Of a stretch of DNA of 64,000 nucleotides, positions 7,101 to 58,851 are shown piece after piece. Source of the DNA: an uncultured Planctomycetaceae bacterium. Its GTDB lineage: Bacteria; Planctomycetota; Planctomycetia; Planctomycetales; Planctomycetaceae. The position numbers and the translations under genes are program-made. The DNA lies in contig CAXBME010000012.1 of NCBI GenBank assembly GCA_963976765.1, positions 124,001 to 188,000 on the forward strand, written 5' to 3'. Under the pieces are notes generated by a model. It was not told where the DNA came from. It ran no database searches and saw nothing but the letters and a program-made list of their open reading frames with translations. Each line of letters begins with the position of its first letter. The stretch's first letter is position 1.

Positions 7101-7188
7101 GCTTTCCCGCCATGCAATCGCTGAACACGGTTTGTGGCAGTTCTGCCGAACTATTCTCAACGCCAACGAGTTTGTCTACATCGACTGA
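4147..7188 (+). CDS. Planctomycete cytochrome c / DUF1549 / DUF1553 (PSD1) protein with an inserted NPCBM-like sugar-binding domain
   Basis: CLRCH and CARCHDHK haem motifs, FGERWARHWLD, PTHPELLDWLA, RRSVY and NEFVYID end; central GLHANAGITFDL...GDPRL beta-domain. Confidence 0.9.
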   Translation: MKTSPGALSAKVQPGLLVCSVIATLLCGGVTHSATEISTETPTVNFERDVAPILEANCLRCHGSESPDGDFSLSTATSWRESGFVIPGKPEQSHLLMVVQPDGDEPPTMPKEGKHLTQSEVTILHRWILAGAEWPEAVTLRVRSKADSTWWSLQPVSQPVMPKTASTSNNPIDHFVRAKLDEKDLTPSPAADRRVLIRRLYFDLLGLPPTPEAVKEFVADSRPKAFEQLVDQLLASQHFGERWARHWLDIAHYADTHGFERDKLRDHAWPYRDYVIRSFNADKPYDQFLREQIAGDALDHPTDESIVATGFLAAGPWDFVGQVETKSPILRRAARALDLDDMLTQVMTSTVGMTANCARCHDHKLDPITQREYYQLAAVFAGVRRDNRDINPQRREHYEAEKTRLTSTVSQVAAQIGQLQGDGLDLADIVGGGNGFGTGKKGLGLDARTGKIQERPFGDLGNVKPGNFAACDSLLIDGVFVPASGQTRISSTGLIVNNLPANSGKAWDMIRHGPVSSQYSTTLGNIDYNSAGHSMIGLHANAGITFDLAAIRNAGNTRTALDVSTVEYRFSAVVGYGGRTVEPSAEFRVHLDGELKSTGRLGRNDTANISIEIPATSRFLTLISTDGGNGYGHDQISFGDPRLTISTPATINDDRQEQLARLEQKRASLEADLRSLGEPPEFYGVVSEAPPAVHILSRGNPEAPGDSVSPGTLGFGKADVQFGTNDMPDTSRRRALADWIASADNPLTRRVIVNRLWHWHFGTGLVNTPSDFGFGGGKPTHPELLDWLADELLRSGWSLKHIHRLIVTSQTYQQTSVPVVVNQKVDPAAVDDDNRLLWRMNSHRLEAEAVRDSVLAVSGKLNHEMFGPGYRDFDYKEAYAPIYTYQTADSPPLWRRSVYRFIVRTTPQQFMTALDCPDPANLTPQRNVTTTALQSLALYNNEFMLKQSRYFAERLQREDGSSVDDQIERAFQLALARSPDGTERELSRHAIAEHGLWQFCRTILNANEFVYID

Positions 7189-7202
7189 CCGATCGAGTAT
7201 CC

Positions 7203-8636: not shown

Positions 8637-8694
8637 CCATTCCCTGCATGCAACAGGGCATCGACCATGCGTTGTGGCACCACGAGTGGGATAA

Positions 8695-8895
8695 CCGAAT
8701 CCTTCGAGATCTATGCCAGCAGGAAGGTGTCGAATTGCTTGAAGGGCATGTGATGCCGGATCGCATCTATGTGTGTGAAGATTCCGCTGAAGTATTCGGT
8801 GTCCTTTATCTTTGGGTTTATCAAAGTAAAGAACGCGGCCCGCATTCATCAGGAGTTGTTGAACGAATGGCCTATGACTTTGGTCAATTACTCCG
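8695..8895 (+). pseudogene. tnpA: Frameshifted internal fragment of IS200/IS605 family transposase tnpA
   Basis: ILRDLCQQEGVELLEGHVMPDRIYVC in one frame continues as KIPLKYSVSFIFGFIKVKNAARIHQELL in another frame, with the shift at gtgtgtg (~8771-8777). The HUH motif has decayed to DRIY. Confidence 0.8.
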
Positions 8896-9002
8896 CCGAC
8901 GAACGAATTTCGTATCTGATCGAACGATGACCATAGATTCCACATTAATTTCGACCTGCTACTGCCAAATGGGTCAGCCACTTCTCAAAAGAAAGCTTCG
9001 AC

Positions 9003-10976
9003 ATGTACAACCATCGTGCGATTCTTAAGTCGCTCGTTCTGCTGGCAGTGGTGGCTCAGACGGCCTTTGCTGCTGACAAGCCGAATGTTGTGTTCATCCT
9101 TGCTGATGACCTTGGCTGGAGTGACACGACACTGTTTGGAACGACGAAGTTCTACAGGACTCCGAACATCGAACGGCTTGCGAAGCGAGGGATGACCTTC
9201 ACACGGGCGTATTCGTCAAGCCCGCTGTGTTCTCCAACGCGAGCGAGTGTGCTGACGGGGATCAGCCCGGCTCGACACGGCATCACCTCTCCGACGTGCC
9301 ACCTGCCGAAAGTGCTCCTGAAGCCAGTCCAGGCAACGAATGGTCCTCCAAACGCGAAAGCAACGCTTCCGGAATCGGTGTCGAGACTCGACACGAGCTA
9401 CTACACACTGGCCGAGATGTTCAGGGACAACGGCTACTCAACCGGGCATTTTGGAAAGTGGCATCTTGGGCCGGAACCGTACTCGCCGCTGGAGCACGGT
9501 TTTGATGTCGATGTGCCACATCATCCCGGTCCCGGACCGGCGGGCAGTTATGTCGCTCCCTGGAAGTTCAAAGACTTCGATCATGATCCGGTCATTCCCG
9601 ATGAGCATCTTGAAGACCGCATGGCGAAAGAAGCCGTCGCGTTCATGACGCAGCACAAGGATGAGCCGTTCTTTCTGAACTACTGGATGTTCAGCGTGCA
9701 TGCACCGTTCGATGCGAAAGAGTCGTTGATTGATGAGTATCGCAGACGGGTTGATCCCAAAGATCCGCAACGGAGTCCGACCTATGCCGCGATGATCGAG
9801 AGTATGGACGATGCTGTCGGAACACTGCTCGACACACTCGACCGGTTGAAGATCGCAGATAACACAATCATTGTTTTTGCATCGGACAATGGCGGGAACA
9901 TGTACAACGAGGTCGACGGCGCCACGGCAACAAGCAATACGCCGCTGCGCGGCGGCAAGGCGACGATGTACGAAGGCGGTGTGCGTGGTCCAGCGATCAT
10001 CGTGCGGCCGGGGTCCGTCGACGCCGCTTCACGAAGCGACGAGATAATTCAAAGCAGCGACTTCTATCCAACGCTGCTGGAGATGCTGTCGATTGATGCT
10101 CAGCCGAATCAAGAGTTTGATGGAGTCAGCATCGTTCCGACGTTGCAGGGAAAACCGCTCAATCGTGAAGCCATCTTTACCTACTTTCCTCACGCGCCTG
10201 GCGTTCCGGACTGGCTACCACCATCGGCCAGCGTTCACCAGAGTGACTGGAAACTTATCCGCATCTTCCACGGCAGTGACAATGGAAAGCACCGCTACAA
10301 GCTGTTCAATCTCAAAGATGACATTGGCGAGCAGAACAATCTCGCCGACAGGTTTCCTGATCGCGTGGAGCAACTCGATGCTCTGATCGAGCAGCATCTC
10401 GTCGACACTCAGGCTGTTCGACCGCTGCCGAATCCCAACTTTGATCCGTCGAAGTACGACGTGACTCTGGAAGGTAAAGCGGTATTGAAGGGCGGTGCGA
10501 ACACTCCGAAGAAGCCCAAAGCGAAGCCGTCTGGCAAACCTGTCGCTGGCTGGCAACCCGGCGGCACCTGCACATTGTCATTCTCAAAGGGGACGTTGCT
10601 GGTCACCAGCACTGGGGTTGACCCTTATCTCAGCTATCGCCTTCCAAAGGCAGTCGGCGAATCATCATTCACTCTGCACATCACGATGACATCAGAGTCG
10701 TCGGGCAAGGGACAGGTTTGCTGGCAGGAAAAGGAGGCCGGACCGTTCACTGCCGAGCGAAGTCAGTTCTTCGATGTACAACACGACGGCCGGAAGCATG
10801 AGTATGCCGTTTCATTTACTACAAACAGTCCGCTACTGGCCGTGAGAATTGATCCGTCGCGAGGTCAGGGAAGGATCGAAATCGCCGACATCCGGCTGGT
10901 CGGCCAGGAAGACGTGACGCACTACCAACTAAAGCAACCAGCATCACGCGCTGCATCAACACCGAACGAGCGGTAG
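9003..10976 (+). CDS. Formylglycine-dependent (S1) sulfatase with C-terminal beta-rich extension
   Basis: Signal peptide, [17 protein letters not shown] (CxPxR), GKWHLG, SDNGG, YEGGVR. Confidence 0.93.
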
Positions 10977-39189: not shown

Positions 39190-39316
39190 AATCAGGGGCC
39201 GATCGACAATCGGCCAGACCAATCATCGCCGTGTCCTGCACGATTGACAGCAAATGACGCTGTGAACGAGCGATCGAAACCCGATCTTCGCCACTGATTG
39301 CGAAAAGGAGTTGGTC

Positions 39317-42169
39317 ATGTTTGATGATGGACGCCAGCAAGAATTCTGGTCGCCACAATACTTTCGCACTGCGATGCGGCGACCACGCGGCGGGTTCTCG
39401 GTCGTCATTGCTTGTCTGCTCTCAGCTGTGTTCGTCGCCGGCGACTGCCATGCTCAGGCACCGGTCGAATTCAAAGGTCACCAGGAAGTTGTCTACGACG
39501 CAAAGTTCCTGCCGGACGGCAAGTCGCTCGTCACTGCCAGCTTTGATCAAACCCTGAAATTGTGGGATGTCGCCACTCAGTCGACGCTGCGGACGATGGA
39601 AGGTCACACCGGAATTGTCCTGACCGTTGACGTTTCTCCGGACGGAAAACTGATCGCATCGGGGGGCAGTGACCGTACGATTCGCTTGTGGGACGTGCCG
39701 AACAGCGATTCGATTTCGACGATCAACGTCCATGACACGGCGGTCACGGCGATGGCTGCTTCGAAAGATGGATCTTTGACCGCGACGGGCGACGACAAAG
39801 GACTGATCCGAGTCTGGCAGAACGCCAGCAGCGGAGCGGCCTCATCGGACACACCGCCGGCTCGACCTGCGTCGACAAGAGAGATCGCCATCGGTCGAGC
39901 AATCTCCCGAATTGCCTGGCGAAATGACAATCGGCAACTGGCGGCAGGTTGCGTTGATGGCTCCATCATTGTGGTGAGCCTCGCCAATGACGGTTCTTCA
40001 GAAACAGAACGTCTGCTCGCGCACGACGGTGAGGTAACGGGTTTAGGTTTTACACCGAACAACCAGTCGATCTTCAGTTGCGGTGAGGACGGCTACGTTC
40101 GCCGCTGGCCGACCACGATTCCTCAGACCTTGAAATTCGACGGACTTTCAAAAGCGGCTACCGCAGTCGCTATTGCTCCAAACGGGGCGTTGATCGCTGT
40201 TGTGGGTGAAGACGGGGCTGGGAAAATCCTCAAGCGGGCTGACGGCGCAGTCGTTCACACTCTTGAAGGCCATGCCGGATCGATCACCGGAGTCTCGTTT
40301 AACCGGGCGGGAAGTCAGGTTGCGACTCTGGACTCGGATCAGGTTGTCAGAGTTTTCGACGTGTCAACGGGTAAGTCTGTTCTTGAGACCACGCCCGCGA
40401 AATCTCCCCTGACCGCAGTTCTGTTCTCTGCCGATGGGAAGGACGTCATTGTCGGCACCGAACGCGGCGACGTTCTGGCCCATGCTTTGGCCCAGCCATC
40501 CCGATTCCGTTCACTGAGCAAACGCCCGAAATCTGTTAGAGCCGTGGCCACGACATCCGACGGCTCTCACTTCTTATTTGCAGGAGACGACCAGCGACTT
40601 TGGATTCGCGACTCGTCGACGGAAAAGACCGAACGCGGTGTCGATTTTGACACCGCCGTAACGGCAATCGTGATCTCCTCTGATAACTCAACTTTCGCGG
40701 TCGGACTTGCGTCAGGAGCGATCGTCACCGTTGACGCAAAAAGTCTTGAGCAGACGGGAATCCTCAGCGGCCACACGACGCCTGTCCGAAGAGTTGCGTT
40801 CAACATTGCCGGAACACAGCTGGCTTCGACCTCGACGGACGGCGTCGCTCGACTGTGGGATCTGAAAGCTCAGGCGGTGGCTCAATCATTTGACGACAAA
40901 AGTAATCCGATTATCGACGTGGCTTTTCAAAATGACAATAAGTCCATCGTCACTGCCCACGCTGATGGAAATGTGCTTGTTGAGACAATCGTTGCTCAAG
41001 TTGTCCATCGAGCTGACGACGGACGCGTCAATGATTTATCGATTGCGTCAAACGGCTCTCAATATGCGACCGCCGGAGCAGATGGAACGGTCAAACTGTG
41101 GAACGCCTCGAACAGCTCGCCCATCCGCAGTTTTTCAGGACTGGAAGGTGGAGCTCTGTGCGTGAGCCTGAGCGCGGACAACCGACAGATCGCCGCTGGC
41201 GGAAGCGATAAAACAGTCCGCACGTGGAACGTTGGCAACTCGTCCGGTCACTTCCGGTTGAACGTTCCTGTTGAAGCTCACCGAGTCAGCTACAGCCCCG
41301 ATTCGTCGCGACTGGTGGCTGCACTTTCTGACAACACGCTTCAGTGTTTCGACCCAACGCCGTTGAATCCTCAGCCCGCCGAACCGCCTGCCCGCGATGC
41401 GTCGCAGCTTCTGCGAGGCCATACCGGACTGATTGGAGACATGGCCTGGGCACCCGACAGCCAGACACTGCAAAGCAGCAGTGCCGACATGACACTTCGG
41501 CAATGGTCGATCGCATCGCCGAAGGAAAAGAACAGACTCTCAGGACACTCGCAGGATGTCTACTCCGTCGTGTTCAGCCCGGACGGAGAAACGCTGGTGA
41601 CCGGGTCTGCGGATAAGACTATTCGAATCTGGAATCTCGAAACCGGCAAAGTAATCAAGACGCTCGCGACGTTCCCGGCTGCCGTCTACGGACTGGATTT
41701 TTCAACGGACGGAAAACAGATTGCCATCGCCGGAGCAGACAACACGGTGCGAATCCTGAACGTTGACGACGGTCGCGAAATCAGACAGTTCACCGGTCCA
41801 ACGCACGCCGTTTACACCGTGGCGTTCAGCCCGGACGACAGTCAAATCGCCGCCGCAGGGATGGGCCTTGGCTCTGAACGAACTATTTATCTCTGGTCAA
41901 CCAGTTCCAGTGAACCGACAGCTGTGTTGCCCGGACACTCCGACGACATCTATCGAACACAGTTCAATCCTGCGGGTTCTCGATTGGCGTCAATCGGGTA
42001 TTCTGGTTCTCTGCGAATCTGGGATGTCGCGAGTGGCCAACCGCTTCTGGAAAGTGATCTGGGTGTCGTCAGTTACTCGGTGAATTATGCACCAGATGGT
42101 TCGAAAGTCGTTGTCACGTCGAATGACCGGACAGCGCGGCTGATCTCAATCCCTGATTCAGCGAAGTAG
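39317..42169 (+). CDS. Exported multi-propeller WD40-repeat protein
   Basis: Many GH...FSPDG...TxRxW repeats; hydrophobic N-terminal segment ending CHA/QA; start codon uncertain (39317 or 39374). Confidence 0.92.
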   Translation: MFDDGRQQEFWSPQYFRTAMRRPRGGFSVVIACLLSAVFVAGDCHAQAPVEFKGHQEVVYDAKFLPDGKSLVTASFDQTLKLWDVATQSTLRTMEGHTGIVLTVDVSPDGKLIASGGSDRTIRLWDVPNSDSISTINVHDTAVTAMAASKDGSLTATGDDKGLIRVWQNASSGAASSDTPPARPASTREIAIGRAISRIAWRNDNRQLAAGCVDGSIIVVSLANDGSSETERLLAHDGEVTGLGFTPNNQSIFSCGEDGYVRRWPTTIPQTLKFDGLSKAATAVAIAPNGALIAVVGEDGAGKILKRADGAVVHTLEGHAGSITGVSFNRAGSQVATLDSDQVVRVFDVSTGKSVLETTPAKSPLTAVLFSADGKDVIVGTERGDVLAHALAQPSRFRSLSKRPKSVRAVATTSDGSHFLFAGDDQRLWIRDSSTEKTERGVDFDTAVTAIVISSDNSTFAVGLASGAIVTVDAKSLEQTGILSGHTTPVRRVAFNIAGTQLASTSTDGVARLWDLKAQAVAQSFDDKSNPIIDVAFQNDNKSIVTAHADGNVLVETIVAQVVHRADDGRVNDLSIASNGSQYATAGADGTVKLWNASNSSPIRSFSGLEGGALCVSLSADNRQIAAGGSDKTVRTWNVGNSSGHFRLNVPVEAHRVSYSPDSSRLVAALSDNTLQCFDPTPLNPQPAEPPARDASQLLRGHTGLIGDMAWAPDSQTLQSSSADMTLRQWSIASPKEKNRLSGHSQDVYSVVFSPDGETLVTGSADKTIRIWNLETGKVIKTLATFPAAVYGLDFSTDGKQIAIAGADNTVRILNVDDGREIRQFTGPTHAVYTVAFSPDDSQIAAAGMGLGSERTIYLWSTSSSEPTAVLPGHSDDIYRTQFNPAGSRLASIGYSGSLRIWDVASGQPLLESDLGVVSYSVNYAPDGSKVVVTSNDRTARLISIPDSAK

Positions 42170-46311: not shown

Positions 46312-48933
46312 ATGCAAGAGGGTCTTCGAGATTCAACATTCAAACGGCGTCTGCAAATCCTGTGGGTTATCGCCGCAACAATTCTGCTGTCTGGACTTCC
46401 GGAGACTCTCCGGGCTGACTTCGTTGATCGAGTCATTAAAGACGAATCCGGCGAGCATCGTTACACCGTTTTTCTTCCAGAAGACTACTCAGCCGACAAA
46501 AAGTGGCCGGTCATCCTGTACCTTCACGGTGCCGGCGAACGAGGGAACGATGGAAAGCGGCAACTGACGATTGGCCTGGCACCGGCGATCGAAAAGCGAA
46601 AAGCAACGTTTCCGTTCATCGCTATTTTTCCTCAATGCGAAGACACCAGTGCGAGATACCTGGCTGGCTGGCTGGCGAACGGCCCTGACGCGCAACGTGC
46701 CTTGAAGATTCTCGACGAAGTGGAACGCGACTATTCGATCGACACGTCTCGCCGCATCCTGACCGGCTGGTCGATGGGCGGGTATGGCACCTGGAGTATC
46801 GCAGCGGCCACGCCCTCAAAGTGGCAGGCAATCCTCCCGCTTGCCGGTGGCGGTGCAGATCTTGCCGAAAAGCTCGTCCACCTTCCGATCTGGGCGTTTC
46901 ACGGCTCGGACGATGCAGCCATTCGTCCTTCTCAATCCCGTCGCACGGTTGCCGCTCTACGTTCGGCAGGAGCAGAACCCCGCTATACCGAAATTTCCGG
47001 TGGCAAGCACGACATCACGCATATCGTCTACGACACTGATGCGGTGATTCAGTGGATGCTCGACCCGAACGGCGACCATCCACGGGCGCTCGCGTTGCGA
47101 GTTCCGATTGACGATGCACCGGTCGACAATTCTCCGTTCATTCCGGCATTGGATCTTGAAGGCGCGGCAACGATCCGGCTGGGCAATACCATGCTGGACG
47201 CACTGGCGATGGCGATCCCCGATCTACTTCCCAAAGATCTGATGCGAGGTTCACTGCCCGACATTTACGACGGAACTGTCGTCGAAGGTCGTCAGTTCCA
47301 GATCACGTTCGGCAGCATTTCCTACTCGGCCAACGTGTGGCGAGTTCGGTTGAACGCGTATCGAAAAGATCGGCTGAACGTGCAGATTGGCGTACAGAAC
47401 GCGGTTCTCAGAATTGGTGGCACGTCGGTTATTGGTCGCGATCACTCAGCGTCAACCGGGCCGATCGACATCGTCATCGGGCATCGGGATCCCGTCTGGC
47501 TGAGTTTCGACGTGACGCCGTATATCAAAGATCGCCGTTTACGGCTGAAACCAGTTGGCACACGTTTCGATATTCCGTACGACAACTGGTATGTCACCGC
47601 CCCGGCTGGTGTCAGTGTGCGAGGATTCGGGATGACTCGCGACAAGGTTTCACAGGGACTGGTCGAAGGTCTGTACGGAAACAAGGCCAGGATCGAGCAG
47701 GAAGTTCGCGGTCTGGTGCCGTCTCTTGTCGCGGCGATGGAAGAGAAGCTTGAACTTGACCAGGCCAACGGAATGATCGGCAGCTTCTGGCCGTTGCCCG
47801 TCTTCCGCCCTCGAGTTCGTATCTGGCCGCAGGATGTCTCGACTGATGAATCAGGGATCTCAGTCGTGCTTGGTCTTACCGCCGCGGCTGTGACTCCCGA
47901 ATCCGCCCCCGACAAGCCGGCTCGACAGGTCGTCACAAACGTCACAGCCGAGGCCGTTAGCCGAACGACTGATCTTGAAGTCTCAATTGCCCCAAACATT
48001 CTTGAGGGGCTGACAAAACTTCTGGTGGCTGCTGACGTCGCAAAGATCAATGTGCTCGACATTCCCGATGCGTCCTTCGCGGGGCTGGCTGACCGATCCT
48101 CACTGACTCGAGCGTTCCCCGAACTGGCATCACTTGGACCAGATGTCCGAGTTTCAACGGTGCTGCACCTTGCCGATCCGATCGCGATTGGCAGCAACCC
48201 AAAGAACGACGGCATGCAGTTCCAGGCTTCTGGGCTGCTGTTCACTGTTTCAACGCGTGCTGCTAATGAGCGAGGCAACTGGAAGCCGTTCGCGAATATC
48301 CGATACTCAGTCGATCAGGGAACGCTTACGTCACTCGAACGAGTTTCCAACGAAGCTCGCGCTCTACAGTTGAAGTGGGAAGGTCAACCCATCGTTGACG
48401 TGAACGCCGAATTTGCCGTCGGATACACACCGACGGACGCCACAATTCACAAGGATGCGTTACTTAAACATTTCAGGGAATCCTGGAATCGCTGGACGGC
48501 TCAGGGCCCGGCATCACAGACGATTATCCCCGACATCGATCTCGGTCTGACTCAGCTCAGACTGTCGGATGTTTCCTGGAAAAGCCCTGCCTTATCAGTC
48601 ACTTTTTCTCCACCGGGCGTCAAATTGACAAACAGCAGCGAGGAGAATCTCGTCTACGAAACAAAGGGGCCCTTCAGTGGATGGGGAGGGCCGTACACGC
48701 TCGAACCTGGCAAGTCGCACGACTACCCCATTGCGTACCCGCTTATTTATCGGCGACGCATTGACGGCGAATACGTGCAGTACGCACTCGCCCCCGGGTC
48801 GCACTCTGAATTTCGCAAGCCGCAGGCTGGCGGTGCCCCCAGACTGTTCAAAGCCAGAGAGGGCCTGGACGTCGGTACGGTTAAAGCGACTTCTACCAAA
48901 TCCAATGAGCCAGAGAACGAACCGCAACCGTAA
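46312..48933 (+). CDS. Exported alpha/beta-hydrolase (esterase/peptidase-like) with a long C-terminal region of possible BPI/LBP-like fold
   Basis: Signal-like helix; YLHGAGERG, GWSMGG nucleophile, FHGSDD, GGKH; about 600 aa beta-rich C-terminus. Confidence 0.8.
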   Translation: MQEGLRDSTFKRRLQILWVIAATILLSGLPETLRADFVDRVIKDESGEHRYTVFLPEDYSADKKWPVILYLHGAGERGNDGKRQLTIGLAPAIEKRKATFPFIAIFPQCEDTSARYLAGWLANGPDAQRALKILDEVERDYSIDTSRRILTGWSMGGYGTWSIAAATPSKWQAILPLAGGGADLAEKLVHLPIWAFHGSDDAAIRPSQSRRTVAALRSAGAEPRYTEISGGKHDITHIVYDTDAVIQWMLDPNGDHPRALALRVPIDDAPVDNSPFIPALDLEGAATIRLGNTMLDALAMAIPDLLPKDLMRGSLPDIYDGTVVEGRQFQITFGSISYSANVWRVRLNAYRKDRLNVQIGVQNAVLRIGGTSVIGRDHSASTGPIDIVIGHRDPVWLSFDVTPYIKDRRLRLKPVGTRFDIPYDNWYVTAPAGVSVRGFGMTRDKVSQGLVEGLYGNKARIEQEVRGLVPSLVAAMEEKLELDQANGMIGSFWPLPVFRPRVRIWPQDVSTDESGISVVLGLTAAAVTPESAPDKPARQVVTNVTAEAVSRTTDLEVSIAPNILEGLTKLLVAADVAKINVLDIPDASFAGLADRSSLTRAFPELASLGPDVRVSTVLHLADPIAIGSNPKNDGMQFQASGLLFTVSTRAANERGNWKPFANIRYSVDQGTLTSLERVSNEARALQLKWEGQPIVDVNAEFAVGYTPTDATIHKDALLKHFRESWNRWTAQGPASQTIIPDIDLGLTQLRLSDVSWKSPALSVTFSPPGVKLTNSSEENLVYETKGPFSGWGGPYTLEPGKSHDYPIAYPLIYRRRIDGEYVQYALAPGSHSEFRKPQAGGAPRLFKAREGLDVGTVKATSTKSNEPENEPQP

Positions 48934-49021: not shown

Positions 49022-50350
49022 GTGCACAAGTCAGATGCCGACAAGTTTCTAAACCTCAGCGTCAGCACACTTGCTCACTGCATACTGGCCTGCGCAGCAC
49101 TCTTTCTGGCCGGATTTGACGCTTCGTCAGCCAATATTATCAGTGGTCAGACGATGGGAACTTCCTACCGGATCGTTCTGGCCGATCCACTGCCTGCAGC
49201 CGGGCTGGCTGCAATTCGGGCGGATGTTGATCAGGCGTTGAACCAACTCGAAGATCAGATGTCGACGTGGCGTCCAGACTCGGAGCTGTCCCGCTTCAAC
49301 TCTTCAACGTCGACTGACTGGTTTCCGGTTTCGCAAGACACAGCGTTCGTCGTTTCAGAAGCGAAGCGAATCTGGAAGATCAGCGCCGGCGCGTTTGACC
49401 CGACGGTCGCACCGCTCATCAAACTCTGGCACTTCGCAGAAGCCCCCGGTGAGCAGAAGCTTCCCTCAGATTCCGAAGTCGACCAGGCAAGGTCCGCAGT
49501 CGGGTTTGAAGAGATCGACGTTCGACTTGTCCCACCAGCCCTGTTGAAAAAACGCCCGGAACTTCAGTTGAACCTTTCAGCCATCGCCAAAGGATATGCC
49601 GTTGACCTTGTCTCGAAACTTCTGACGGAACAGGTCTCGGGTGGCCACCTGGTGGAAATTGGCGGCGAGATGCGAAGTTTCCGTCGCAAGGCAGACGGCA
49701 GTTCCTGGACGGCGGGAATTGAGACTCCGGACGCTCTGCCTCGTCAGATTCATGCGGCGTTGCGGCTGGACGATCAGTCACTGGCCACTTCAGGTGATTA
49801 CCGGAATTACTTTGAAGTCGACGGACGGCGATACTCACACACGATTGATCCAGCGACCGGTCGACCGGTTACCCACAACCTCACGTCCGTTTCCGTTCTG
49901 GCGAAAGACTGCCTGACAGCCGACGCACTGGCAACGGCGATCGAAGTGCTCGGGCCTGAACGCGGCCTGGAACTGGCCGAACGGGAAAACCTCGCGACTT
50001 ACTTCATCATGCGAAACGACGACGGATTCGAAATCCGGGTGTCGGAAACGTTTCCTCTGGTCGTCGGCGCTGTTCCTCCGACAGACTCTGCAAACGAAGC
50101 GAATCCGATTGTCGCGACGGTCCTGGCCGCTGTCGGCATCTTTGCTCTCGCCATCGCAGGCATGGCCGTGGGAGTAATTTTCAGCAATCGAACAATTAAA
50201 GGAAGCTGCGGCGGGCTCGCCAATATGCCGGGCCAGGATGGTAAATCAATCTGTGAATTGTGTACCGTTCCTGCCGAAGAGTGCCGCGACGAGGCAATGA
50301 GGAAAATCCGCCAGCAAGCGGAGTGCTCCGACAGCGGTTTTGAGGTTTAA
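49022..50350 (+). CDS. apbE: FAD:protein FMN transferase ApbE with C-terminal NqrM (DUF539)-like fusion
   Basis: TMGT, AFDPTV, SAIAKGYAVD, EIGGE, ATSGDYRNY, YSHTIDP, ADALAT; C-terminus GMAVGVIF...IKGSCGGL...CELC. Confidence 0.93.
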   Translation: MHKSDADKFLNLSVSTLAHCILACAALFLAGFDASSANIISGQTMGTSYRIVLADPLPAAGLAAIRADVDQALNQLEDQMSTWRPDSELSRFNSSTSTDWFPVSQDTAFVVSEAKRIWKISAGAFDPTVAPLIKLWHFAEAPGEQKLPSDSEVDQARSAVGFEEIDVRLVPPALLKKRPELQLNLSAIAKGYAVDLVSKLLTEQVSGGHLVEIGGEMRSFRRKADGSSWTAGIETPDALPRQIHAALRLDDQSLATSGDYRNYFEVDGRRYSHTIDPATGRPVTHNLTSVSVLAKDCLTADALATAIEVLGPERGLELAERENLATYFIMRNDDGFEIRVSETFPLVVGAVPPTDSANEANPIVATVLAAVGIFALAIAGMAVGVIFSNRTIKGSCGGLANMPGQDGKSICELCTVPAEECRDEAMRKIRQQAECSDSGFEV

Positions 50351-50379
50351 AGTCAGTGTCTTTACCTGAAAGTCTACCG

Positions 50380-52644
50380 ATGCGTTTTATATTCTCGCTC
50401 TTCGTTTGCCTGAGCCTGTTCTCCAGAGTCTCGGCCGCCGACGCTGTTCTGGTTGAAGCGGAGAGCTTCTCTGCCCACGGTGGTTGGAAGCTGGATACTC
50501 AATTCATCGACACGATGGGGTCTCCTTACCTGTTGGCTCATGGATTGGGGCGACCAGTGAAGGATGCGACGACCACTGTCCAGGTGCCGTCAACCGGCAC
50601 GTATCGCGTCTTTGTCCGAACGATTGACTGGGTCGCTAAATGGGGCGCCAAAGGTCAGCCCGGACGGTTTGAGTTGTCATTCAACGGCCAGCGGCTGAAA
50701 GAAACGTTCGGAACAAAGTCTGCTGAATGGAGCTGGCATGACGGCGGCACAGTTTCCATTGACTCGAAGGATGTCGAAATCGGCCTGCACGACCTGACCG
50801 GCTTTGACGGTCGCTGCGACGCCATCTTTCTCACAAAGAGCAATCAGGCTCCCCCGGATGACTCGACCATTCTCGCTGACTGGCGTCGCGAACTACTTGG
50901 CCTCGACAAAGAATCGACACCTCGCGGCCCTTACGATCTGGTCGTCGTCGGCGGCGGTTATGCAGGGATGGGGGCAGCGATTTCCGCCGCACGCATGGGC
51001 TGCAAAGTGGCCCTCGTGCAGAATCGCCCCGTCCTTGGTGGAAATGGCTCCAGTGAAGTCCGTGTCTGGGCGATGGGAAATATCCGTCGCGGCAAATACC
51101 CTCGCATCGGTGAGATCATCGAAGAGTTCTGCGATCACGCGAAAAAATCTCCAGGCACATACGAGGAATTCGGCGACGCTCAGAAAGAGGCTATCGTTCG
51201 CGCAGAAAAAAACATCGACCTGTTCCTCAACCATCACGCCTACAAAGTTGATACCCAGGACAACCGAATTGTCGCGATTCATGCCTTTGACACTCGAACC
51301 AGCGAACATTCACGCTTCACCGGAAAGCTCTTTTCGGATTGCACCGGACACGGCACGATCGGATACCTCGCCAAAGCCGACTGGAACATGGCGGAAGACG
51401 GTCGCATGGGGATGAGCAATATGTGGGCGTGGGCGAACGCCGAAACTCCCACCACCTACCCGCAGACGCCGTGGGCGCTCGACCTCGACATGAAAGACTT
51501 TCCATACCCACGCGACTTCCACGGCCAATGGTTCTGGGAGAGCGGTTTCGACAAAGACCCACTGGGTGGTGCCGAGTCAATCCGAGACTGGAACCTGCGA
51601 GCGGTCTACGGCGCCTTCAATGCCATGAAAAACCGCGATGGAGCCGCCGAGCACAAGAACGCATTCCTGACCTGGGTGGCGTACATTGGTGGACCTCGCG
51701 AGTCCCGCCTTCTACAGGGCGACGTCGTGCTGACTCAGGACGACATTGTGGCGAAGAAAGATTTCCCAGACGGCTGTGTGCCGAGCACCTGGTCAATCGA
51801 CCTCCATTATCCGAAAGAGCAATACGCGGAAAAGTTCAAAGACAACCCGTTCATTTCATACGCTGTTCACGACCGCCGAGTCGATCGCTCATATGGATAC
51901 CCTGTGCCCTACCGATGCTTCTACTCGCGAAACATCGACAATCTGTTCATGGCGGGACGCTGCATCAGCGTGACGCATCAGGCACTCGGCACCGTTCGCG
52001 TCATGAAAACCTGCGGCATGATGGGTGAAGTCGTCGGAAAGGCCGCGTCGATCTGCACTCTGCAAAGCTGTACGCCACGAGACGTCTATGAGCGATACCT
52101 CGACGAACTGAAAACGTTGCTCGAACTTCCCGGCAAGGCTCACCGCGAGACAGTCTCCAGCAAAATCATCATCCCAGCCGACTCTCTACCACTGGCTGGC
52201 TCCAATGGTCCAATACCAGGCATCGATCCAGCGAAACTGGAAGGTCTCGTACTCGATGACCGCCAGGCCAAGAAGGAAGGCAAGTGGACGGAAGGAACAG
52301 GGCTTAAAGGCTTTGTTGGGTGGGGCTACTCTTACGCCGGAGCCGGCAGCAACTCGAAGCTGACCTGGAAATTCAACGCACCATCAACCGGAAAATTCGA
52401 CATCCGAATCAGCTACCAGCCGCACGAAAATCGATCGACAAAAGTAATGGTGAGCGTTGACATTGATTCCGATGAGTCCGTTACCGTGCTCAATATGCGG
52501 AAAGCTGCGCCGTTGGAGAACGGGTTTGCCAGCCTGGGTACGTACTCACTTGAGAAAGGCGAGTCAGTTGCAGTCATCATTTCAACGACTGGCTCAGACG
52601 GTAATGTCCACGCTGACGCATTGCAGGTTGTGCCGGTTAAGTAA
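50380..52644 (+). CDS. Exported FAD-dependent oxidoreductase with C-terminal xanthan-lyase/golvesin-like beta domain
   Basis: Signal peptide; VVVGGGYAG, LGGNGSSE, DCTGHG, RESRLLQGD, NLFMAGRCIS, RVMKTCG; C-terminus HADALQ. Confidence 0.88.
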   Translation: MRFIFSLFVCLSLFSRVSAADAVLVEAESFSAHGGWKLDTQFIDTMGSPYLLAHGLGRPVKDATTTVQVPSTGTYRVFVRTIDWVAKWGAKGQPGRFELSFNGQRLKETFGTKSAEWSWHDGGTVSIDSKDVEIGLHDLTGFDGRCDAIFLTKSNQAPPDDSTILADWRRELLGLDKESTPRGPYDLVVVGGGYAGMGAAISAARMGCKVALVQNRPVLGGNGSSEVRVWAMGNIRRGKYPRIGEIIEEFCDHAKKSPGTYEEFGDAQKEAIVRAEKNIDLFLNHHAYKVDTQDNRIVAIHAFDTRTSEHSRFTGKLFSDCTGHGTIGYLAKADWNMAEDGRMGMSNMWAWANAETPTTYPQTPWALDLDMKDFPYPRDFHGQWFWESGFDKDPLGGAESIRDWNLRAVYGAFNAMKNRDGAAEHKNAFLTWVAYIGGPRESRLLQGDVVLTQDDIVAKKDFPDGCVPSTWSIDLHYPKEQYAEKFKDNPFISYAVHDRRVDRSYGYPVPYRCFYSRNIDNLFMAGRCISVTHQALGTVRVMKTCGMMGEVVGKAASICTLQSCTPRDVYERYLDELKTLLELPGKAHRETVSSKIIIPADSLPLAGSNGPIPGIDPAKLEGLVLDDRQAKKEGKWTEGTGLKGFVGWGYSYAGAGSNSKLTWKFNAPSTGKFDIRISYQPHENRSTKVMVSVDIDSDESVTVLNMRKAAPLENGFASLGTYSLEKGESVAVIISTTGSDGNVHADALQVVPVK

Positions 52645-52673
52645 CACGACGGATTCGATGACGGATCGGTGTT

Positions 52674-54914
52674 ATGGATCATGTACCTGTAAATCTTCGG
52701 CTGCCAGTTGTTCGCGAATCGCCGCTTCAGCCTCGTAGAAAACGACCGGTTCGAGCGATCGTTCTACACGTCCTGCGGCTGGGGCTTGTTGTCCTGATAC
52801 TGTTGCTGATCCGGCAGCAGCACCGCAGCTATCTGGCTGCCGAGGCGTCGCGCGATCAGCAGCCGATCGACACCGGGCTCCTGCGGATGTTCTTCCCGGC
52901 AGTCGCCGAAGGTGGAATGTTCGACGCCAGTCGCCGCACTCAGCAGGTCGTCGACTCGACCGGCGAGCCCATCGGTTTTGTCGTCCAGACATCGCCGCAG
53001 TCTGACGGGATCATTGGTTTCTCCGGACCGACGAACGTGCTGATGGCCTTCGACACGGACGAACGAATCATCGGCCTGAAGATTCTCTGGAGCCGTGACA
53101 CGCGGGAACATGTTGAACTCATTGAGCGACAGAGCGAGTTTCTTCATTCCTGGGATGGCACTTCGTGGAACGATGCCGCGAATCGAACTTTCGTCGACGG
53201 AGTATCCGGCGCCACGCTTACCAGTCTGGCGATCGCCGAATCGATTGCGACGCGTCTCGGTGGCAGCATCCCGTCGCTAAGGTTTCCCGAGCCGCTGAAT
53301 GTCTCGGAAATCGCTTTGCAGTTTCCGATGGCGTCCGCACTTTCTCCCGATCCACGACGCCCTGCTCTGCACCGGATTCTCGACACATCTGGTTCGCTGC
53401 TGGGCTACGTGTTTCGTACGTCCCCAGCCGCTGACAATCTTGTCGGCTATCAAGGTCCGACAGACACGTTGATCATGCTGGACGCCGAGGAAAAAGTTCT
53501 CGGCATCCGGCTTCGCCACAGCTTCGATAACGAACCGTACGTCAGATACGTGAAGGATGAGGATTACTTTCTGAATCTGTTTAACGGCCGTTCGCTGACA
53601 GAACTTGCGAAGCTGGATCTTTTCGAAGCTCGGGTCGAGGGCGTCTCAGGAGCAACGATGACCAGTATGAACGTCGCCGATGCGATCGTATTGGCAGCCA
53701 GTCGCGCGGCCACAGAAGTGAAGTCAGTCGCTTCAGCGACGTCTTCATCTTCGATGCCGAATACTCGTCAGCTGGCGACGCTGACGGTTCTGGTTTCCGG
53801 CCTGATCATCGGCCTCAGCCGACTCAGGAAGTTCCGCATCGCACGACTGGCTCTCCTGGCAGCGGTCATCTCAGTCATTGGCCTTCTCAATGGGGACATG
53901 ATTTCGCTGGCGACACTGGCTGGCTGGGCTCAGAACAACGTCCCATGGGAAATCGCGGTCGGACTGGTCGCCATCTCTATCGCCGCCGTCATTGTCCCGG
54001 CCACATCCAGGAGCCAGATTTACTGTCACCAGCTATGCCCGCACGGAGCGGTCCAGCAACTCGTAAAAAAACGTCTGCCCCTTCAACCGCAGTTGCCTCG
54101 CTGGCTGCATCAAACTCTGCCACTTCTCCCATTCGGGCTGCTCGCCTGGTGCATCGTTGTCAGCATGCTGCATCTACCATTCAGCCTGGTGGACCTGGAA
54201 CCTTTCGACGCGTGGGTCTTTCAGGCCGCTGGTACTGCCACCATCACAATCGCAATCGTCGGGCTGGGAGCGTCGCTGTTTATTCCCATGGCTTATTGCC
54301 GATACGGATGTCCCACCGGTGCCTTTCTTGATTTCATCCGTTTCAACTCGCGCAGCGACGTCTGGTCCCGCGCCGACTGGCTGGCAACATCTCTGCTACT
54401 GCTCGCCGTGCTGCTCCGGTACGTTTTCCCAACAGGCTCACTTGAGGATGTCGATTTTCAGGCGATCGCAGAATCAGCTCGAGCCTGGGGGGCCGACCAT
54501 AAGGCTGCTCTGCAATGGCTGACGTTGTCTTCGATTGTACTTTTCGTCGGTTCGCTGCTGATGGTTCCGTGGCTGGTGGCGAGAATTCCGACTGACTATT
54601 TCATGCCGAAATCAAAGGGGCATTTACGATTCCGGCACCAACATCCGGTTGTGTCACTGCTCGGTCGATTCTTCAAGAACCTGCTGGGGGGCGTGCTTCT
54701 GCTGGCAGGTATCGCCATGCTGATCCTGCCGGGCCAGGGGCTGTTGACGATTCTTCTGGGAGTCATGCTGATCGATTTCCCTGGTAAACGACGACTGGAA
54801 ATCCTGATCATTCGTCGTCGCGCTATAAACCGCGGCGTCTGCTGGATTCGCCGTCGAGCTGGCCAGGAAGAACTCCTTTTGCCAGAGTCAGACACAGACA
54901 CCGATCCTGAATAA
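52674..54914 (+). CDS. Membrane protein with two FMN-binding domains, a NosR-like Cys-motif membrane domain and a C-terminal PGPGW-like domain
   Basis: DGVSGATLTS and EGVSGATMTS flavinylation motifs; YCHQLCPHG and YCRYGCPTG; C-terminus IPTDYF...LPGQGLLTILLG...DFPGK. Confidence 0.87.
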   Translation: MDHVPVNLRLPVVRESPLQPRRKRPVRAIVLHVLRLGLVVLILLLIRQQHRSYLAAEASRDQQPIDTGLLRMFFPAVAEGGMFDASRRTQQVVDSTGEPIGFVVQTSPQSDGIIGFSGPTNVLMAFDTDERIIGLKILWSRDTREHVELIERQSEFLHSWDGTSWNDAANRTFVDGVSGATLTSLAIAESIATRLGGSIPSLRFPEPLNVSEIALQFPMASALSPDPRRPALHRILDTSGSLLGYVFRTSPAADNLVGYQGPTDTLIMLDAEEKVLGIRLRHSFDNEPYVRYVKDEDYFLNLFNGRSLTELAKLDLFEARVEGVSGATMTSMNVADAIVLAASRAATEVKSVASATSSSSMPNTRQLATLTVLVSGLIIGLSRLRKFRIARLALLAAVISVIGLLNGDMISLATLAGWAQNNVPWEIAVGLVAISIAAVIVPATSRSQIYCHQLCPHGAVQQLVKKRLPLQPQLPRWLHQTLPLLPFGLLAWCIVVSMLHLPFSLVDLEPFDAWVFQAAGTATITIAIVGLGASLFIPMAYCRYGCPTGAFLDFIRFNSRSDVWSRADWLATSLLLLAVLLRYVFPTGSLEDVDFQAIAESARAWGADHKAALQWLTLSSIVLFVGSLLMVPWLVARIPTDYFMPKSKGHLRFRHQHPVVSLLGRFFKNLLGGVLLLAGIAMLILPGQGLLTILLGVMLIDFPGKRRLEILIIRRRAINRGVCWIRRRAGQEELLLPESDTDTDPE

Positions 54915-56453: not shown

Positions 56454-56657
56454 ATGCAGAATCGACGATGTAAACGACCTGCAAACTCAATCCGTCTGGC
56501 AACCGGCCACCAACGTGCCGGGGCATCGACTCTTGATTATATTCTTGTTCTCGGAGTCATCCTGCCGATCATGGCTTTCGCCATCCCGACCGGCAAACGG
56601 ATAATTCAACTAACCTATGAAATGGTCTGCACACTCGTTGCATGGCCGATGATGTAG
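56454..56657 (+). CDS. Flp-like small prepilin (non-canonical)
   Basis: RAG/ASTLDYILVLGVILP; 67 aa; first gene of the second tad cluster. Confidence 0.65.
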   Translation: MQNRRCKRPANSIRLATGHQRAGASTLDYILVLGVILPIMAFAIPTGKRIIQLTYEMVCTLVAWPMM

Positions 56658-56734
56658 AGCCTCAGTCTCTGACCCGTTCGAGACAGAGACTCGACAGCCG
56701 CCTGACGAAAACGGTAGCGACAAGGAACAGTCAG

Positions 56735-56959
56735 ATGAGTTCGAAGGTCACATTTCGCGATCTGCTCCGCAAGGTTCACCGCGACGAACGAGGCGCCGTC
56801 AGCCTGGAGACGATTCTCATCATCGGAGCGATTGCGATCCCGATCCTGATCTTTCTGATCAAATTCGGCTGGCCCCGCATCCGCGACTACTTCAATCAGG
56901 GACTGGACGAGCTCGAAGAAGGCAGCAGCGATGCGGCGAACAATGGTGGACGAATCTGA
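56735..56959 (+). CDS. flp: Flp-like pilin
   Basis: HRDERG/AVSLETILIIGAIAIP; AAGGA RBS. Confidence 0.8.
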   Translation: MSSKVTFRDLLRKVHRDERGAVSLETILIIGAIAIPILIFLIKFGWPRIRDYFNQGLDELEEGSSDAANNGGRI

Positions 56960-57003
56960 TTCTGGTAACGCTGCTTCGCCAGATCGCATTTCAAGAAGAG
57001 TTT

Positions 57004-57073
57004 GACCACGGAGACACCGAATTACACGGGAGACAGTGAGTTCTATCCGTGTCATTCCGTGACTTCCGTGGTC
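57004..57073. repeat. Tandem-unit inverted repeat (ACACGGA family) between flp and the peptidase gene
   Basis: GACCACGGA-GACACCGAA-TTACACGGG ... TCCGTGTCA-TTCCGTGAC-TTCCGTGGTC. Confidence 0.75.
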
Positions 57074-57117
57074 TTATTTTTTCAGCGATCCAGTTTCCGG
57101 CAAAGTTCAGGACTCTC

Positions 57118-57675
57118 ATGGTTGCGGTTGGTGTGCTGCTGATTCTGCTCTGCGTTGCGGCCTGGACGGACGCGCGTTCGCACACGATTTACAACTGGAA
57201 CTGCTACCCCGGCATCGTCGGCGGACTGCTGCTGAACTCTGCTGGTTTGGGTTTATCCGAGCCGGGTTTTGACGGGCTCGGGTTTGCCACGACTGGTTTT
57301 CTCTGTTGCGGGATGATCATGCTGACCGCTTTCGTCTTTTTCCAGATGGGCGGCGGCGATGTCAAACTGCTGGCGATGATCGGCAGTTTTCTCGGACTTG
57401 AGTCCGGAATCGAAGCCCTGCTCTGGACGTTTTCTTTGGGATTTGTGCTGGGCATTTCGGCCATCATCTGGCGTCATGGGAGCATTGCTCTGGTACGTCG
57501 GGGCGTTGAACACTCGGCGGCAATACTGAAAGCGCGAAGCTGGATCCCACTTAACCACGACGAAAAGAAGCCGCTCGAACAGGGGTTGTTTCTGGCCCCG
57601 TCGGCGCTGATCGCGGTGTGCATTGTCGTCTGGCCGGAAGTCAGCGACGCTGTCTCTGAGCTCGGTCGTCCCTGA
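57118..57675 (+). CDS. cpaA: Prepilin peptidase, A24 family (CpaA/TadV)
   Basis: AWTDARSHTIYN (first Asp) and MGGGDVKLLAMIG (second Asp); several hydrophobic helices. Confidence 0.92.
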   Translation: MVAVGVLLILLCVAAWTDARSHTIYNWNCYPGIVGGLLLNSAGLGLSEPGFDGLGFATTGFLCCGMIMLTAFVFFQMGGGDVKLLAMIGSFLGLESGIEALLWTFSLGFVLGISAIIWRHGSIALVRRGVEHSAAILKARSWIPLNHDEKKPLEQGLFLAPSALIAVCIVVWPEVSDAVSELGRP

Positions 57676-57807
57676 TAAGGGCGCATCCTGTCATGAATTC
57701 ATGATTTCCAGCTGTTTTGCGTTGATCGGCAGGTCGCTCCTGCGTATCACCTGAGGCCGTCGTTGCGCGAGCCGTTCTTTACCGAAGAGAGTTCCGGAGA
57801 CCTGGTT

Positions 57808-58851
57808 GTGAACCGTGCGGTTCTTCAAGCACTGCTGCCCGCTCTGACGGCCCTTGTCGCGGCATTGATTCTGCTGCGACTGGTGGTCCAGGCGAGCGGT
57901 GCGCGATTTCAGATGACTCGAATCAGGCAACTGCATCGCTCTGAAGAAGGGGCCGTTCAGTCGTTGAGTTTTGTCCTGACGCTGCCGCTGTTCATCATGA
58001 TCGTGATGTTTATTGTCCAGGTCAGCCAGCTGATGATTGGCATCATGGGCGTGCATTATGCAGCCTTCGCTGCGGCACGGGCCGCGATCGTCTGGACGCC
58101 CGCGCGACTCATCGGCAGCTCGACCAGTGATGCGGAAGAAATTGAGAACGAGCTTCAGCTGCCTCTCCAGGACGACGTTCCGATTAACCTCATCTTCAAC
58201 GGATCTGGTACCGGGATTCAGGAGTCGCAGGCTTCTGCCGCGTACAAGCTGGAAAAGGTTTTCGGAGCCGCCGCAATGGCCACCGCTCCTGTCAGCCCGT
58301 CGCGTCAAATGGTTGAGCAGGTTTTCTGTCCGCAGTGTGGCGTGCAGCCGTGGGCATTCCAGCAGATGTATCAGCGGCTGGTGCCATCGGCGCAGAGCAA
58401 TTCCAGAATTTCTGAGCGACTGCTCAACAAACTTTCGTACGCGTACTGGAACACGCGAGTGGAACTTGCCTTTTTCGACAAAGACACGCTCGACGGGCCG
58501 ACTTACAATCCGCGAGAGCTCGTTCTATTCGACGGTCTGCCACAACGAAACGACGAGGGAGAATGGATTCGTGCATGGGTTCCTCACGAAATCGGCTGGC
58601 AGGATCCCATTCGACTGACGGTCACTCATGACTTTGCGCTACTGCCGGGGCCCGGCCGTTTCCTCGCGAAATTTATCGTTCGAGCAGACGGCGAACCCGA
58701 CCGGGTTTCTTCGCGAGTCGAAATTCGCGGGGGCTCTGGTGACAGCGTCCCGTGGACACGTCCGTCCTACACGGTTCCCATTTCCGCGTCAGCCACGTTG
58801 ACGAACGAAGGCTTCAAACCTCTCCTGGCGTATGAACAGAACATCAACTGA
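57808..58851 (+). CDS. TadE-like protein with an extra N-terminal hydrophobic segment
   Basis: HRSEEG/AVQSLSFVLTLPLF, HYAAFAAARAA; GGAG RBS before the GTG at 57808. Confidence 0.75.
   Translation: MNRAVLQALLPALTALVAALILLRLVVQASGARFQMTRIRQLHRSEEGAVQSLSFVLTLPLFIMIVMFIVQVSQLMIGIMGVHYAAFAAARAAIVWTPARLIGSSTSDAEEIENELQLPLQDDVPINLIFNGSGTGIQESQASAAYKLEKVFGAAAMATAPVSPSRQMVEQVFCPQCGVQPWAFQQMYQRLVPSAQSNSRISERLLNKLSYAYWNTRVELAFFDKDTLDGPTYNPRELVLFDGLPQRNDEGEWIRAWVPHEIGWQDPIRLTVTHDFALLPGPGRFLAKFIVRADGEPDRVSSRVEIRGGSGDSVPWTRPSYTVPISASATLTNEGFKPLLAYEQNIN

What the first reader, a model, noticed from the sequence alone, without database searches (positions are those of the whole stretch)
46312..48933. Serine hydrolase fused to an apparent two-domain BPI/LBP/CETP (TULIP) lipid-transfer fold
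Seen: a signal-like helix, an alpha/beta-hydrolase with GWSMGG/D/H residues (~46420-47070), then about 600 aa with no obvious family. That region starts GAATIRLGNTMLDALAMAIPDLLPKDLMRGSLPDI (47161 onward) followed by long beta strands. A second unit reads DLEVSIAPNILEGLTKLLVAADVAKINV...LTRAFPELASLGPDVRVSTVLHLADP (47971-48180). Knowledge (sequences recalled from memory, to be verified): these echo the LBP N-terminal start (GLVARITDKGLQYAA...LRITLPDF) and the BPI C-terminal barrel (MVYLGLSDYFFN...[21 protein letters not shown]), in the same order and at roughly the expected spacing. Inference: a bacterial envelope lipid-remodelling protein coupling an esterase to a tubular lipid-carrying module. 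I do not know of this architecture being characterised.
Basis: partly seen in the sequence, partly recalled or inferred. Interest (0 to 1): 0.8.

Follow-up and report, generated by a model that had tools for sequence, protein, structure and literature searches.

The report
Esterase fused to BPI-like lipid tube
A planctomycete gene encodes an exported esterase joined to a two-barrel module shaped like the human lipid-binding proteins BPI and CETP; the design is real and widespread in this bacterial family, and a preprint has already pointed it out, but what it does appears untested.

Summary
Confirmed. No Pfam LBP_BPI_CETP match, but the AlphaFold2 model (pLDDT 96) has BPI and CETP as top structural matches (Z 15.8 and 15.7, 429 residues aligned). 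It is not new: the TipA preprint (10.1101/2025.09.09.675085) describes this architecture in Planctomyces sp. SH-PL14, whose protein is a full-length homologue (33% over 821 columns). This scan also reported it on another genome (e1-7460370). Added here: a match in 80 of 111 genomes of the family and 1 of 289 others; catalytic triad in 74 of 74 complete representatives; sandwich missing in 17 of 84; no conserved neighbours; a barrel that is not cationic; single-barrel relatives. Most likely a soluble exported lipid-ester hydrolase whose tube holds the acyl chains (about 0.6). Substrate and role (own envelope or scavenged lipid) are open. I found no experiment on it.

The parts
46312..48933 (+). 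whole gene, 873 aa, one open frame
   Evidence: single copy of the TULIP part in the own genome
46312..46416 (+). probable cleaved Sec signal peptide (residues 1-35): basic n-region, hydrophobic h-region, no lipobox cysteine, no later transmembrane stretch
   Evidence: read from the sequence; only Cys is C109 and no 19-residue window exceeds hydropathy 1.6; similar N-termini in homologues; no signal-peptide predictor was available
46417..47070 (+). alpha/beta-hydrolase of the Thermotoga EstA / LC-Est1C kind; S154 (46771-46773), D201 (46912-46914), H233 (47008-47010)
   Evidence: phmmer 3doh E 8.6e-31, 3wyd E 3.5e-26; VIA Z 28.1, rmsd 1.9, 212 aligned; triad in 74 of 74 complete representatives
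47071..47142 (+). linker; W248 to F276 spans 26-38 residues in the 98 rows of alignment A1
47143..47781 (+). first strand of the central sheet (278-291) and N-terminal TULIP barrel (helix A 292-305, long sheet, helix B 443-479)
   Evidence: DSSP of the model; single-TULIP matches Der p 7 Z 12.5, JHBP Z 10.0, Takeout Z 9.1 on model residues 17-213
47782..47991 (+). hinge with the conserved WPxP motif and central-sheet strands (491-560)
47992..48615 (+). C-terminal TULIP barrel (helix A 563-574, sheet, helix B 714-731) and closing strands (747-766)
   Evidence: the BPI alignment runs over model residues 12-497 against chain residues 2-454; Mmm1 matches this half alone, weakly (Z 6.0, rmsd 5.5, 175 aligned)
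48616..48855 (+). small beta-sandwich (769-848), the counterpart of the domain that the TipA preprint likens to TipB
   Evidence: all-beta at pLDDT above 94; weak sandwich matches Z 5-7; 31% identity over 71 residues to the SH-PL14 domain, E 7e-7
48856..48930 (+). variable low-confidence tail
   Evidence: pLDDT under 50 for 853-870

Best explanation
A Sec-exported, soluble (probably periplasmic) lipid-ester hydrolase with a built-in lipid carrier. The BPI-like double TULIP takes a lipid or other long hydrophobic ester out of a membrane or particle and shields its chains. The small EstA-type serine hydrolase, tethered to the first strand of the central sheet, cleaves an ester bond of the bound molecule. 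The beta-sandwich, tethered to the last strand of the same sheet, sits on the N-terminal barrel and may gate it as TipB gates TipA. Shown here by computation: domain order, both folds, intact triad, stability of the fusion. Inferred: export, lipid binding, coupling of the domains, gating. The source of the lipid is not resolved; I lean slightly to the cell's own envelope lipids because the gene is mostly single-copy and stands alone.
For: Fold: model of residues 272-850 pLDDT 95.8, pTM 0.91; BPI Z 15.8, rmsd 6.6, 429 aligned; CETP Z 15.7, rmsd 5.7, 429 aligned; of ranks 1-10 all are TULIP-fold proteins; Foldseek agrees on two models; language-model features point to LBP_BPI_CETP_C clusters at 0.91 and 0.88 (a lead only). 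Strands alternate in hydropathy across the family, e.g. 395-406 +2.9/-1.7 and 613-620 -1.8/+2.8 (no control). Enzyme: triad in 74 of 74. Coupling: of 84 representatives that cover both barrels, 81 carry hydrolase sequence upstream, 2 look N-terminally cut and 1 truly lacks it; linker length is held to 26-38 residues; 12 of 13 well-supported hydrolase splits recur in the TULIP tree. The full-length model has pTM 0.81, more than an unplaced hydrolase would allow (my estimate about 0.6-0.65). Precedent: TipA holds lipids, binds bilayers and is opened by TipB; a periplasmic Lipocone-TULIP fusion was proposed to act on TULIP-bound lipids (PMC12419801).
Against: No activity, ligand or location data. 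I could not inspect the model's coordinates, so the pockets, the shape and the distance from active site to pocket are untested. TULIP-like folds also occur in proteins not known as lipid carriers (OrfX, P47, Aha1 are among the matches). Rigid-body agreement with BPI is loose (rmsd 6.6; TM 0.53 by target length). The hydrolase's nearest solved relatives are generic or feruloyl/acetyl-type esterases, not lipases. Only 14 of 22 well-supported TULIP splits recur in the hydrolase tree. The sandwich is missing in 17 of 84 representatives, so gating by it cannot be required. P0156 keeps the tube without the enzyme. Whole genera have no match (g8 0 of 7, g294 0 of 11).
Confidence: 0.6

Rival explanations
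1. Variant of the best explanation: a scavenging enzyme. It digests environmental lipids or waxes that reach the enlarged periplasm or the cell surface, rather than the cell's own envelope lipids.
For: [quoted passage not shown] Patchy by genus; extra paralogues in some genomes, in tandem in G637.
Against: No transporter, beta-oxidation or degradation genes recur beside it; mostly one copy per genome.
Confidence: 0.25
2. The tube is a scaffold, spacer or protein-binding arm, and the hydrolase removes small acyl groups from a non-lipid substrate such as a polysaccharide, or is a peptidase.
For: Feruloyl and acetyl esterases and S9 peptidases fill the hydrolase match list; weak NCBIfam PHA-depolymerase hits far under their cut-offs; OrfX, P47 and Aha1 share the fold.
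Against: The best matches of the whole module are the lipid-binding BPI, CETP and LBP, about 7 Z units above P47 and OrfX; the esterase matches are generic to the fold.
Confidence: 0.2
3. An antibacterial effector: a BPI-like module binds and loosens the outer membrane of competitors and the esterase deacylates their lipids.
For: BPI binds LPS and damages outer membranes (PMC5507252 passages); TipA destabilises bilayers.
Against: The N-barrel is near neutral (net +3; family median +2, n = 107) and the C-barrel acidic (median -7), unlike the cationic BPI (recalled). No recurring partner that could be an immunity gene among neighbours of 100 aa or more.
Confidence: 0.08
4. An acyltransferase: the serine enzyme moves an acyl chain between lipids held in the tube (LCAT-like chemistry) instead of hydrolysing.
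For: A two-pocket tube could hold donor and acceptor; serine hydrolases pass through an acyl-enzyme (general knowledge).
Against: No sequence or structure match to an acyltransferase family.
Confidence: 0.1

Closest known systems
Planctomyces sp. SH-PL14 esterase-double TULIP-beta-sandwich protein (UniProt A0A142WTQ2 in bioRxiv 10.1101/2025.09.09.675085; AMV18021.1 / WP_075092662.1 = P0184 here)
   Same: Same domains in the same order; 33% identity over 821 columns, E 5e-136; by domain 44, 34, 26 and 31%.
   Different: Only sequence divergence. The UniProt number itself was not printed; strain and architecture agree. The preprint gives an AlphaFold-based remark and no experiment on it in the parts I read.
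Bdellovibrio TipA / TipB
   Same: Bacterial exported BPI-like double TULIP with a small beta-sandwich partner on the N-terminal barrel.
   Different: TipA has no enzyme domain, TipB is a separate, larger protein, and TipA dimerises through a hairpin; neither appeared in my PDB searches, so no direct comparison.
Human BPI, LBP, CETP (BPI/LBP/CETP family)
   Same: Two TULIP barrels joined by a central sheet; 429 residues align.
   Different: 9-14% identity, no Pfam match, extra enzyme and sandwich domains, N-barrel near neutral.
Thermotoga maritima EstA (3doh) and LC-Est1C (3wyd)
   Same: Hydrolase fold and triad; Z 28.1 and 24.2, 34 and 31% identity.
   Different: EstA carries an Ig-like domain (title of reference 30 in PMC13689099), not a TULIP module.
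ClaspCone-1 Lipocone-TULIP fusions (PMC12419801)
   Same: Predicted periplasmic enzyme fused to a TULIP domain, proposed to act on the bound lipid.
   Different: Different enzyme, membrane-anchored, also untested.
DUF4403 bacterial double TULIPs (PMC6791001)
   Same: Full-length bacterial BPI-like pseudodimer.
   Different: No PF14356 match in the protein or the own genome.

Membership tests
BPI-like double TULIP fold | two barrels, each helix A - long beta sheet - helix B | tested here: met
   DSSP; alignment of model 12-497 to BPI 2-454, Z 15.8, rmsd 6.6, 429 residues
BPI-like double TULIP fold | central sheet from one strand before and two after each barrel | tested here: met
   strands 278-291 and 502-525, 555-559 and 747-766 in that order; feature as described in PMC6791001; pairing inferred from order and the BPI alignment, coordinates not seen
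BPI-like double TULIP fold | hydrophobic pockets or lumen | tested here: inconclusive
   alternating hydropathy in most strands, weak in the longest; no cavity calculation possible
BPI-like double TULIP fold | binds or transfers lipid | not testable with these tools
   needs purified protein
Pfam LBP_BPI_CETP / LBP_BPI_CETP_C | profile match over the cut-off | tested here: not met
   0 of 5 queries, 0 of 16 members of A2, no match at this locus at E <= 10 in the own genome
BPI (bactericidal, LPS-binding) | strongly cationic N-terminal barrel (feature recalled) | tested here: not met
   net charge +3, family median +2
DUF4403 | PF14356 match | tested here: not met
EstA-type alpha/beta-hydrolase | G-x-S-x-G nucleophile elbow with Asp and His | tested here: met
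   S154, D201, H233; 74 of 74 complete representatives
EstA-type alpha/beta-hydrolase | fold | tested here: met
   3doh Z 28.1, rmsd 1.9, 212 aligned
EstA-type alpha/beta-hydrolase | ester hydrolysis, chain-length preference | not testable with these tools
   needs an assay
SH-PL14-type esterase-double TULIP-sandwich proteins | full-length homology over all domains | tested here: met
TipA/TipB system | TipB-like sandwich seated on helix A of the N-barrel | tested here: inconclusive
   sandwich present and apparently placed (pTM 0.91); TipB not among the matches listed; seat not inspectable; the preprint says so for the SH-PL14 homologue
TipA/TipB system | homodimer through a hairpin | not tested

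The most novel reading that the evidence does not exclude
A single-chain lipid-processing machine typical of Planctomycetaceae: the tube extracts a lipid, the fused sandwich opens the N-barrel in cis, and the tethered serine enzyme deacylates (or transacylates) the lipid without releasing it. It would be the first shown case of a BPI-like double TULIP that feeds its own catalytic domain, and the natural forms without sandwich, without enzyme and with one barrel would dissect it.
Probability: 0.25. Interest if true: 0.7.

Novelty: new member of a known kind. Interest (0 to 1): 0.4.

Why it matters
TULIP proteins are known as carriers; an enzyme fed directly by a BPI-like tube has not been shown in the papers I could search. 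This family is soluble, compact, modelled with high confidence, present in cultured strains (SH-PL14, Maioricimonas) and comes with natural deletions, so it makes two open questions testable: whether a TULIP can channel substrate to an active site, and whether the TipB-type opening mechanism is general. The architecture itself would not surprise a specialist who has read the TipA preprint.

Tried and rejected
Sequence routes to BPI: no credible hit in Pfam, NCBIfam or PDB sequences with the single protein or the 16-row profile; HHpred against PDB or Pfam was not available. Complex prediction of hydrolase (34-256) with TULIP plus sandwich (268-850): no verdict, score 0.11 against a mark of 0.32, controls not folded. 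VIA second look on the full-length model: list filled by hydrolases, uninformative on the TULIP. Atlas search with the sandwich alone: best 0.89, unnamed clusters, leads only. TipA and TipB were not among the structure matches listed. Conserved operon: not found; the commonest true neighbour is an ECF sigma factor in 25 of 81 loci, many loci being short. Lipoprotein or Tat export: a lipobox-like pattern in 4 of 106 homologues, Tat-like in 0 of 106, rejected. Porin, propeller or sandwich for residues 278-768: porin-type matches only at Z 6.2 or less, rejected. Cholesterol-dependent cytolysin rows in Foldseek (TM under 0.2, rmsd 24-37): rejected as chance. Expression: no RNA holder listed. Promoter and terminator scans at or below shuffle level; no Rfam match in the window. 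The first-match regex printed some false nucleophile motifs (P0046 has GWSMG), so I use the aligned count. Literature: searches found only the TipA preprint on this architecture; its figures and supplements could not be seen, and subscription papers are not searched.

Full report
Observation. The window holds one open frame at 46312-48933 (+), 873 aa from an ATG with AAGGAG 8 bases upstream. Residues 1-35 read as a cleaved signal peptide (by eye; no predictor available); there is no lipobox cysteine and no transmembrane stretch. Residues 36-253 match Thermotoga EstA (3doh, E 8.6e-31) and LC-Est1C (3wyd, E 3.5e-26) and several Pfam hydrolase families. Residues 267-873 have no credible match in Pfam, NCBIfam or PDB sequences, nor has a 16-row profile of residues 272-768.

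Fold. AlphaFold2 on the whole protein with 98 rows gave pLDDT 90.3 and pTM 0.81; on residues 272-850 with 107 rows, 95.8 and 0.91. Foldseek ranks BPI, LBP and CETP first for both models (E 6e-16 to 4e-13, about 500-525 columns, TM 0.53-0.60 by target length for BPI and CETP, 0.36-0.44 for LBP). VIA-align against 48,161 chains gives BPI Z 15.8 (rmsd 6.6, 429 aligned, model 12-497 = residues 283-768 against chain 2-454) and CETP Z 15.7 (rmsd 5.7, 429 aligned), then Der p 7, Der f 7, JHBP, a carotene-binding protein and Takeout on the N-terminal half, P47, OrfX and SPLUNC1; Mmm1 matches the C-terminal half alone at Z 6.0. The element order is strand, helix A, long sheet, helix B, two strands, twice over, as described for BPI-type dimers in PMC6791001 (passages). 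Identity to BPI is 11-14%. Residues 769-848 form a separate small sandwich with only weak matches (Z 5-7: PepT2 extracellular domain, CBM25, VHL). The hydrolase matches 3doh at Z 28.1. I could not see coordinates, so pockets and shape are untested; family hydropathy alternates along most strands (no control).

Family. A profile search of 1.84 billion representatives gave 313 hits, of which the best 150 were listed. Of these 150, 84 cover both barrels; 81 of the 84 have hydrolase sequence upstream, two look N-terminally cut, and P0156 has a signal-like start and a Pro/Thr-rich linker but no enzyme. The sandwich is detected in 65 of 84, absent with a short tail in 17, unclear in 2; in the TULIP tree one clade of 23 holds 17 of the 20 rows without a sandwich hit. 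S154, D201 and H233 are kept in 74 of 74 complete representatives, at median pairwise identities of 44% (hydrolase) and 25% (TULIP); 12 of 13 well-supported hydrolase splits recur in the TULIP tree but only 14 of 22 the other way (the trees were built). Among 400 other genomes of the class (at least 90% complete asked for), 80 of 111 of the window's family match and 1 of 289 from other families; 14 of the 80 supplied rows of the profile, one (G691) matches only through a single-barrel form, and some genomes without a match have withheld bases. In a phylum-wide sample, 17 of 20 family genomes and 0 of 380 others matched the single query. Named records of homologues are titled Planctomycetaceae, Gimesia, Schlesneria or less specific planctomycete labels, one Rhodopirellula, from which I take the family to be Planctomycetaceae. 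The own genome has one copy and three further hydrolases of this type without TULIP.

Neighbourhood. In the window the gene lies between pyrF and apbE on the same strand. In 80 related loci plus the window no neighbour is general: an ECF sigma factor occurs in 25 of 81, Hsp70-like and ferredoxin genes in 12 each, polyphosphate kinase in 13. Many loci are short, and ORFs under 100 aa were not called. No lipid-transport or immunity-like partner recurs.

What is known. The TipA preprint (10.1101/2025.09.09.675085; I read parts 1 and 3 of 7, the Discussion and keyword passages; figures and supplements not seen) reports structures of a Bdellovibrio double TULIP that holds lipids and is opened by the sandwich protein TipB. 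It names Planctomyces sp. [quoted passage not shown] One of my representatives, P0184, is named by its sources as a protein of that strain (AMV18021.1; 20 of the representatives were looked up) and aligns with the window's protein at 33% over 821 columns, E 5e-136, across all domains. Bacterial BPI-like proteins are reported in PMC6791001 and PMC10584675 (passages), an enzyme-TULIP fusion in PMC12419801 (passage). PMC5507252, PMC12673574, PMC13689099 and 10.1101/2024.08.23.609331 were seen as passages only. Searches found no other paper on this protein family.

How it most likely works. Both accessory domains are joined to strands of the central sheet: the hydrolase through a linker of 26-38 residues to the first strand, the sandwich directly to the last. 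In BPI and CETP the pocket mouths lie near this waist (recalled). The pTM values suggest that the predictor places both domains against the tube (my inference). I therefore read the protein as an exported esterase whose tube supplies the acyl-chain binding that a small esterase lacks, with the sandwich as an optional gate (0.6). Within that reading, work on the cell's own envelope lipids and scavenging of outside lipids are close; single copy and lack of catabolic neighbours favour the first slightly, absence in whole genera (g8 0 of 7, g294 0 of 11) shows that it is dispensable at family level. A non-lipid role is not excluded (0.2): the nearest solved hydrolases are not lipases, and OrfX, P47 and Aha1 share the fold. 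A BPI-like weapon is unlikely: the N-barrel has net charge +3 (family median +2) and the C-barrel is acidic in most members.

Verdict. The protein is a new member of an unnamed family whose architecture has been noted once, by computation, and for which I found no experiment. Interest 0.4; 0.7 if substrate channelling from a gated tube to the fused enzyme is shown (probability 0.25).

Noticed in passing
P0247, P0249, P0250, P0255-P0258, P0260, P0262-P0267, P0270; L124:4817-5668 (-); L125:4137-5372 (-): A family of short proteins (about 210-290 aa, one of 412) with a signal-like start and only the sheet and helix B of the N-terminal barrel, lacking helix A and the central sheet; 15 of 150 listed representatives, hhalign probability 99.96 to the long form, an invariant Cys in A-x-C-G, no Pfam match. 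One relative is named by its source as a Thalassoroseus pseudoceratinae protein. Not folded.
   Followed up: partly
P0156: Natural form without enzyme: signal-like start, Pro/Thr-rich linker, double TULIP and sandwich, on a 294 kb contig.
   Followed up: partly
L126:4083-6779 and 6846-9545 (-): Two diverged full-length paralogues in tandem in genome G637, which has three matches.
   Followed up: no
L022-L024 (e.g. L022:1456-2154, -): A separate protein of about 235 aa in three genomes of genus g4 ends in a domain related to the C-terminal sandwich (39-43% over 40-60 residues, E about 4e-6 to 4e-5), behind a helical part.
   Followed up: no
L018:340-3153 (-): The homologue in G137 carries a near-exact internal repeat of about 120 residues spanning helix B and the hinge; an assembly artefact or a recent duplication.
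   Followed up: no
window 49022-54914 (+): ApbE flavin transferase fused to an NqrM-like C-terminal piece (Pfam NqrM E 1.2e-7), followed by an FAD oxidoreductase with a Golvesin-like domain and a membrane protein with two FMN-binding domains, Fer4_5 and PGPGW: an extracytosolic flavinylation cluster, not a conserved neighbour of the gene.
   Followed up: no
window 56642-58851 (+): Start of a Tad/Flp pilus cluster: pilin-like ORF, A24 prepilin peptidase, TadE-like protein.
   Followed up: no
window 39311-42169 (+): Large WD40 multi-propeller protein, 952 aa.
   Followed up: no
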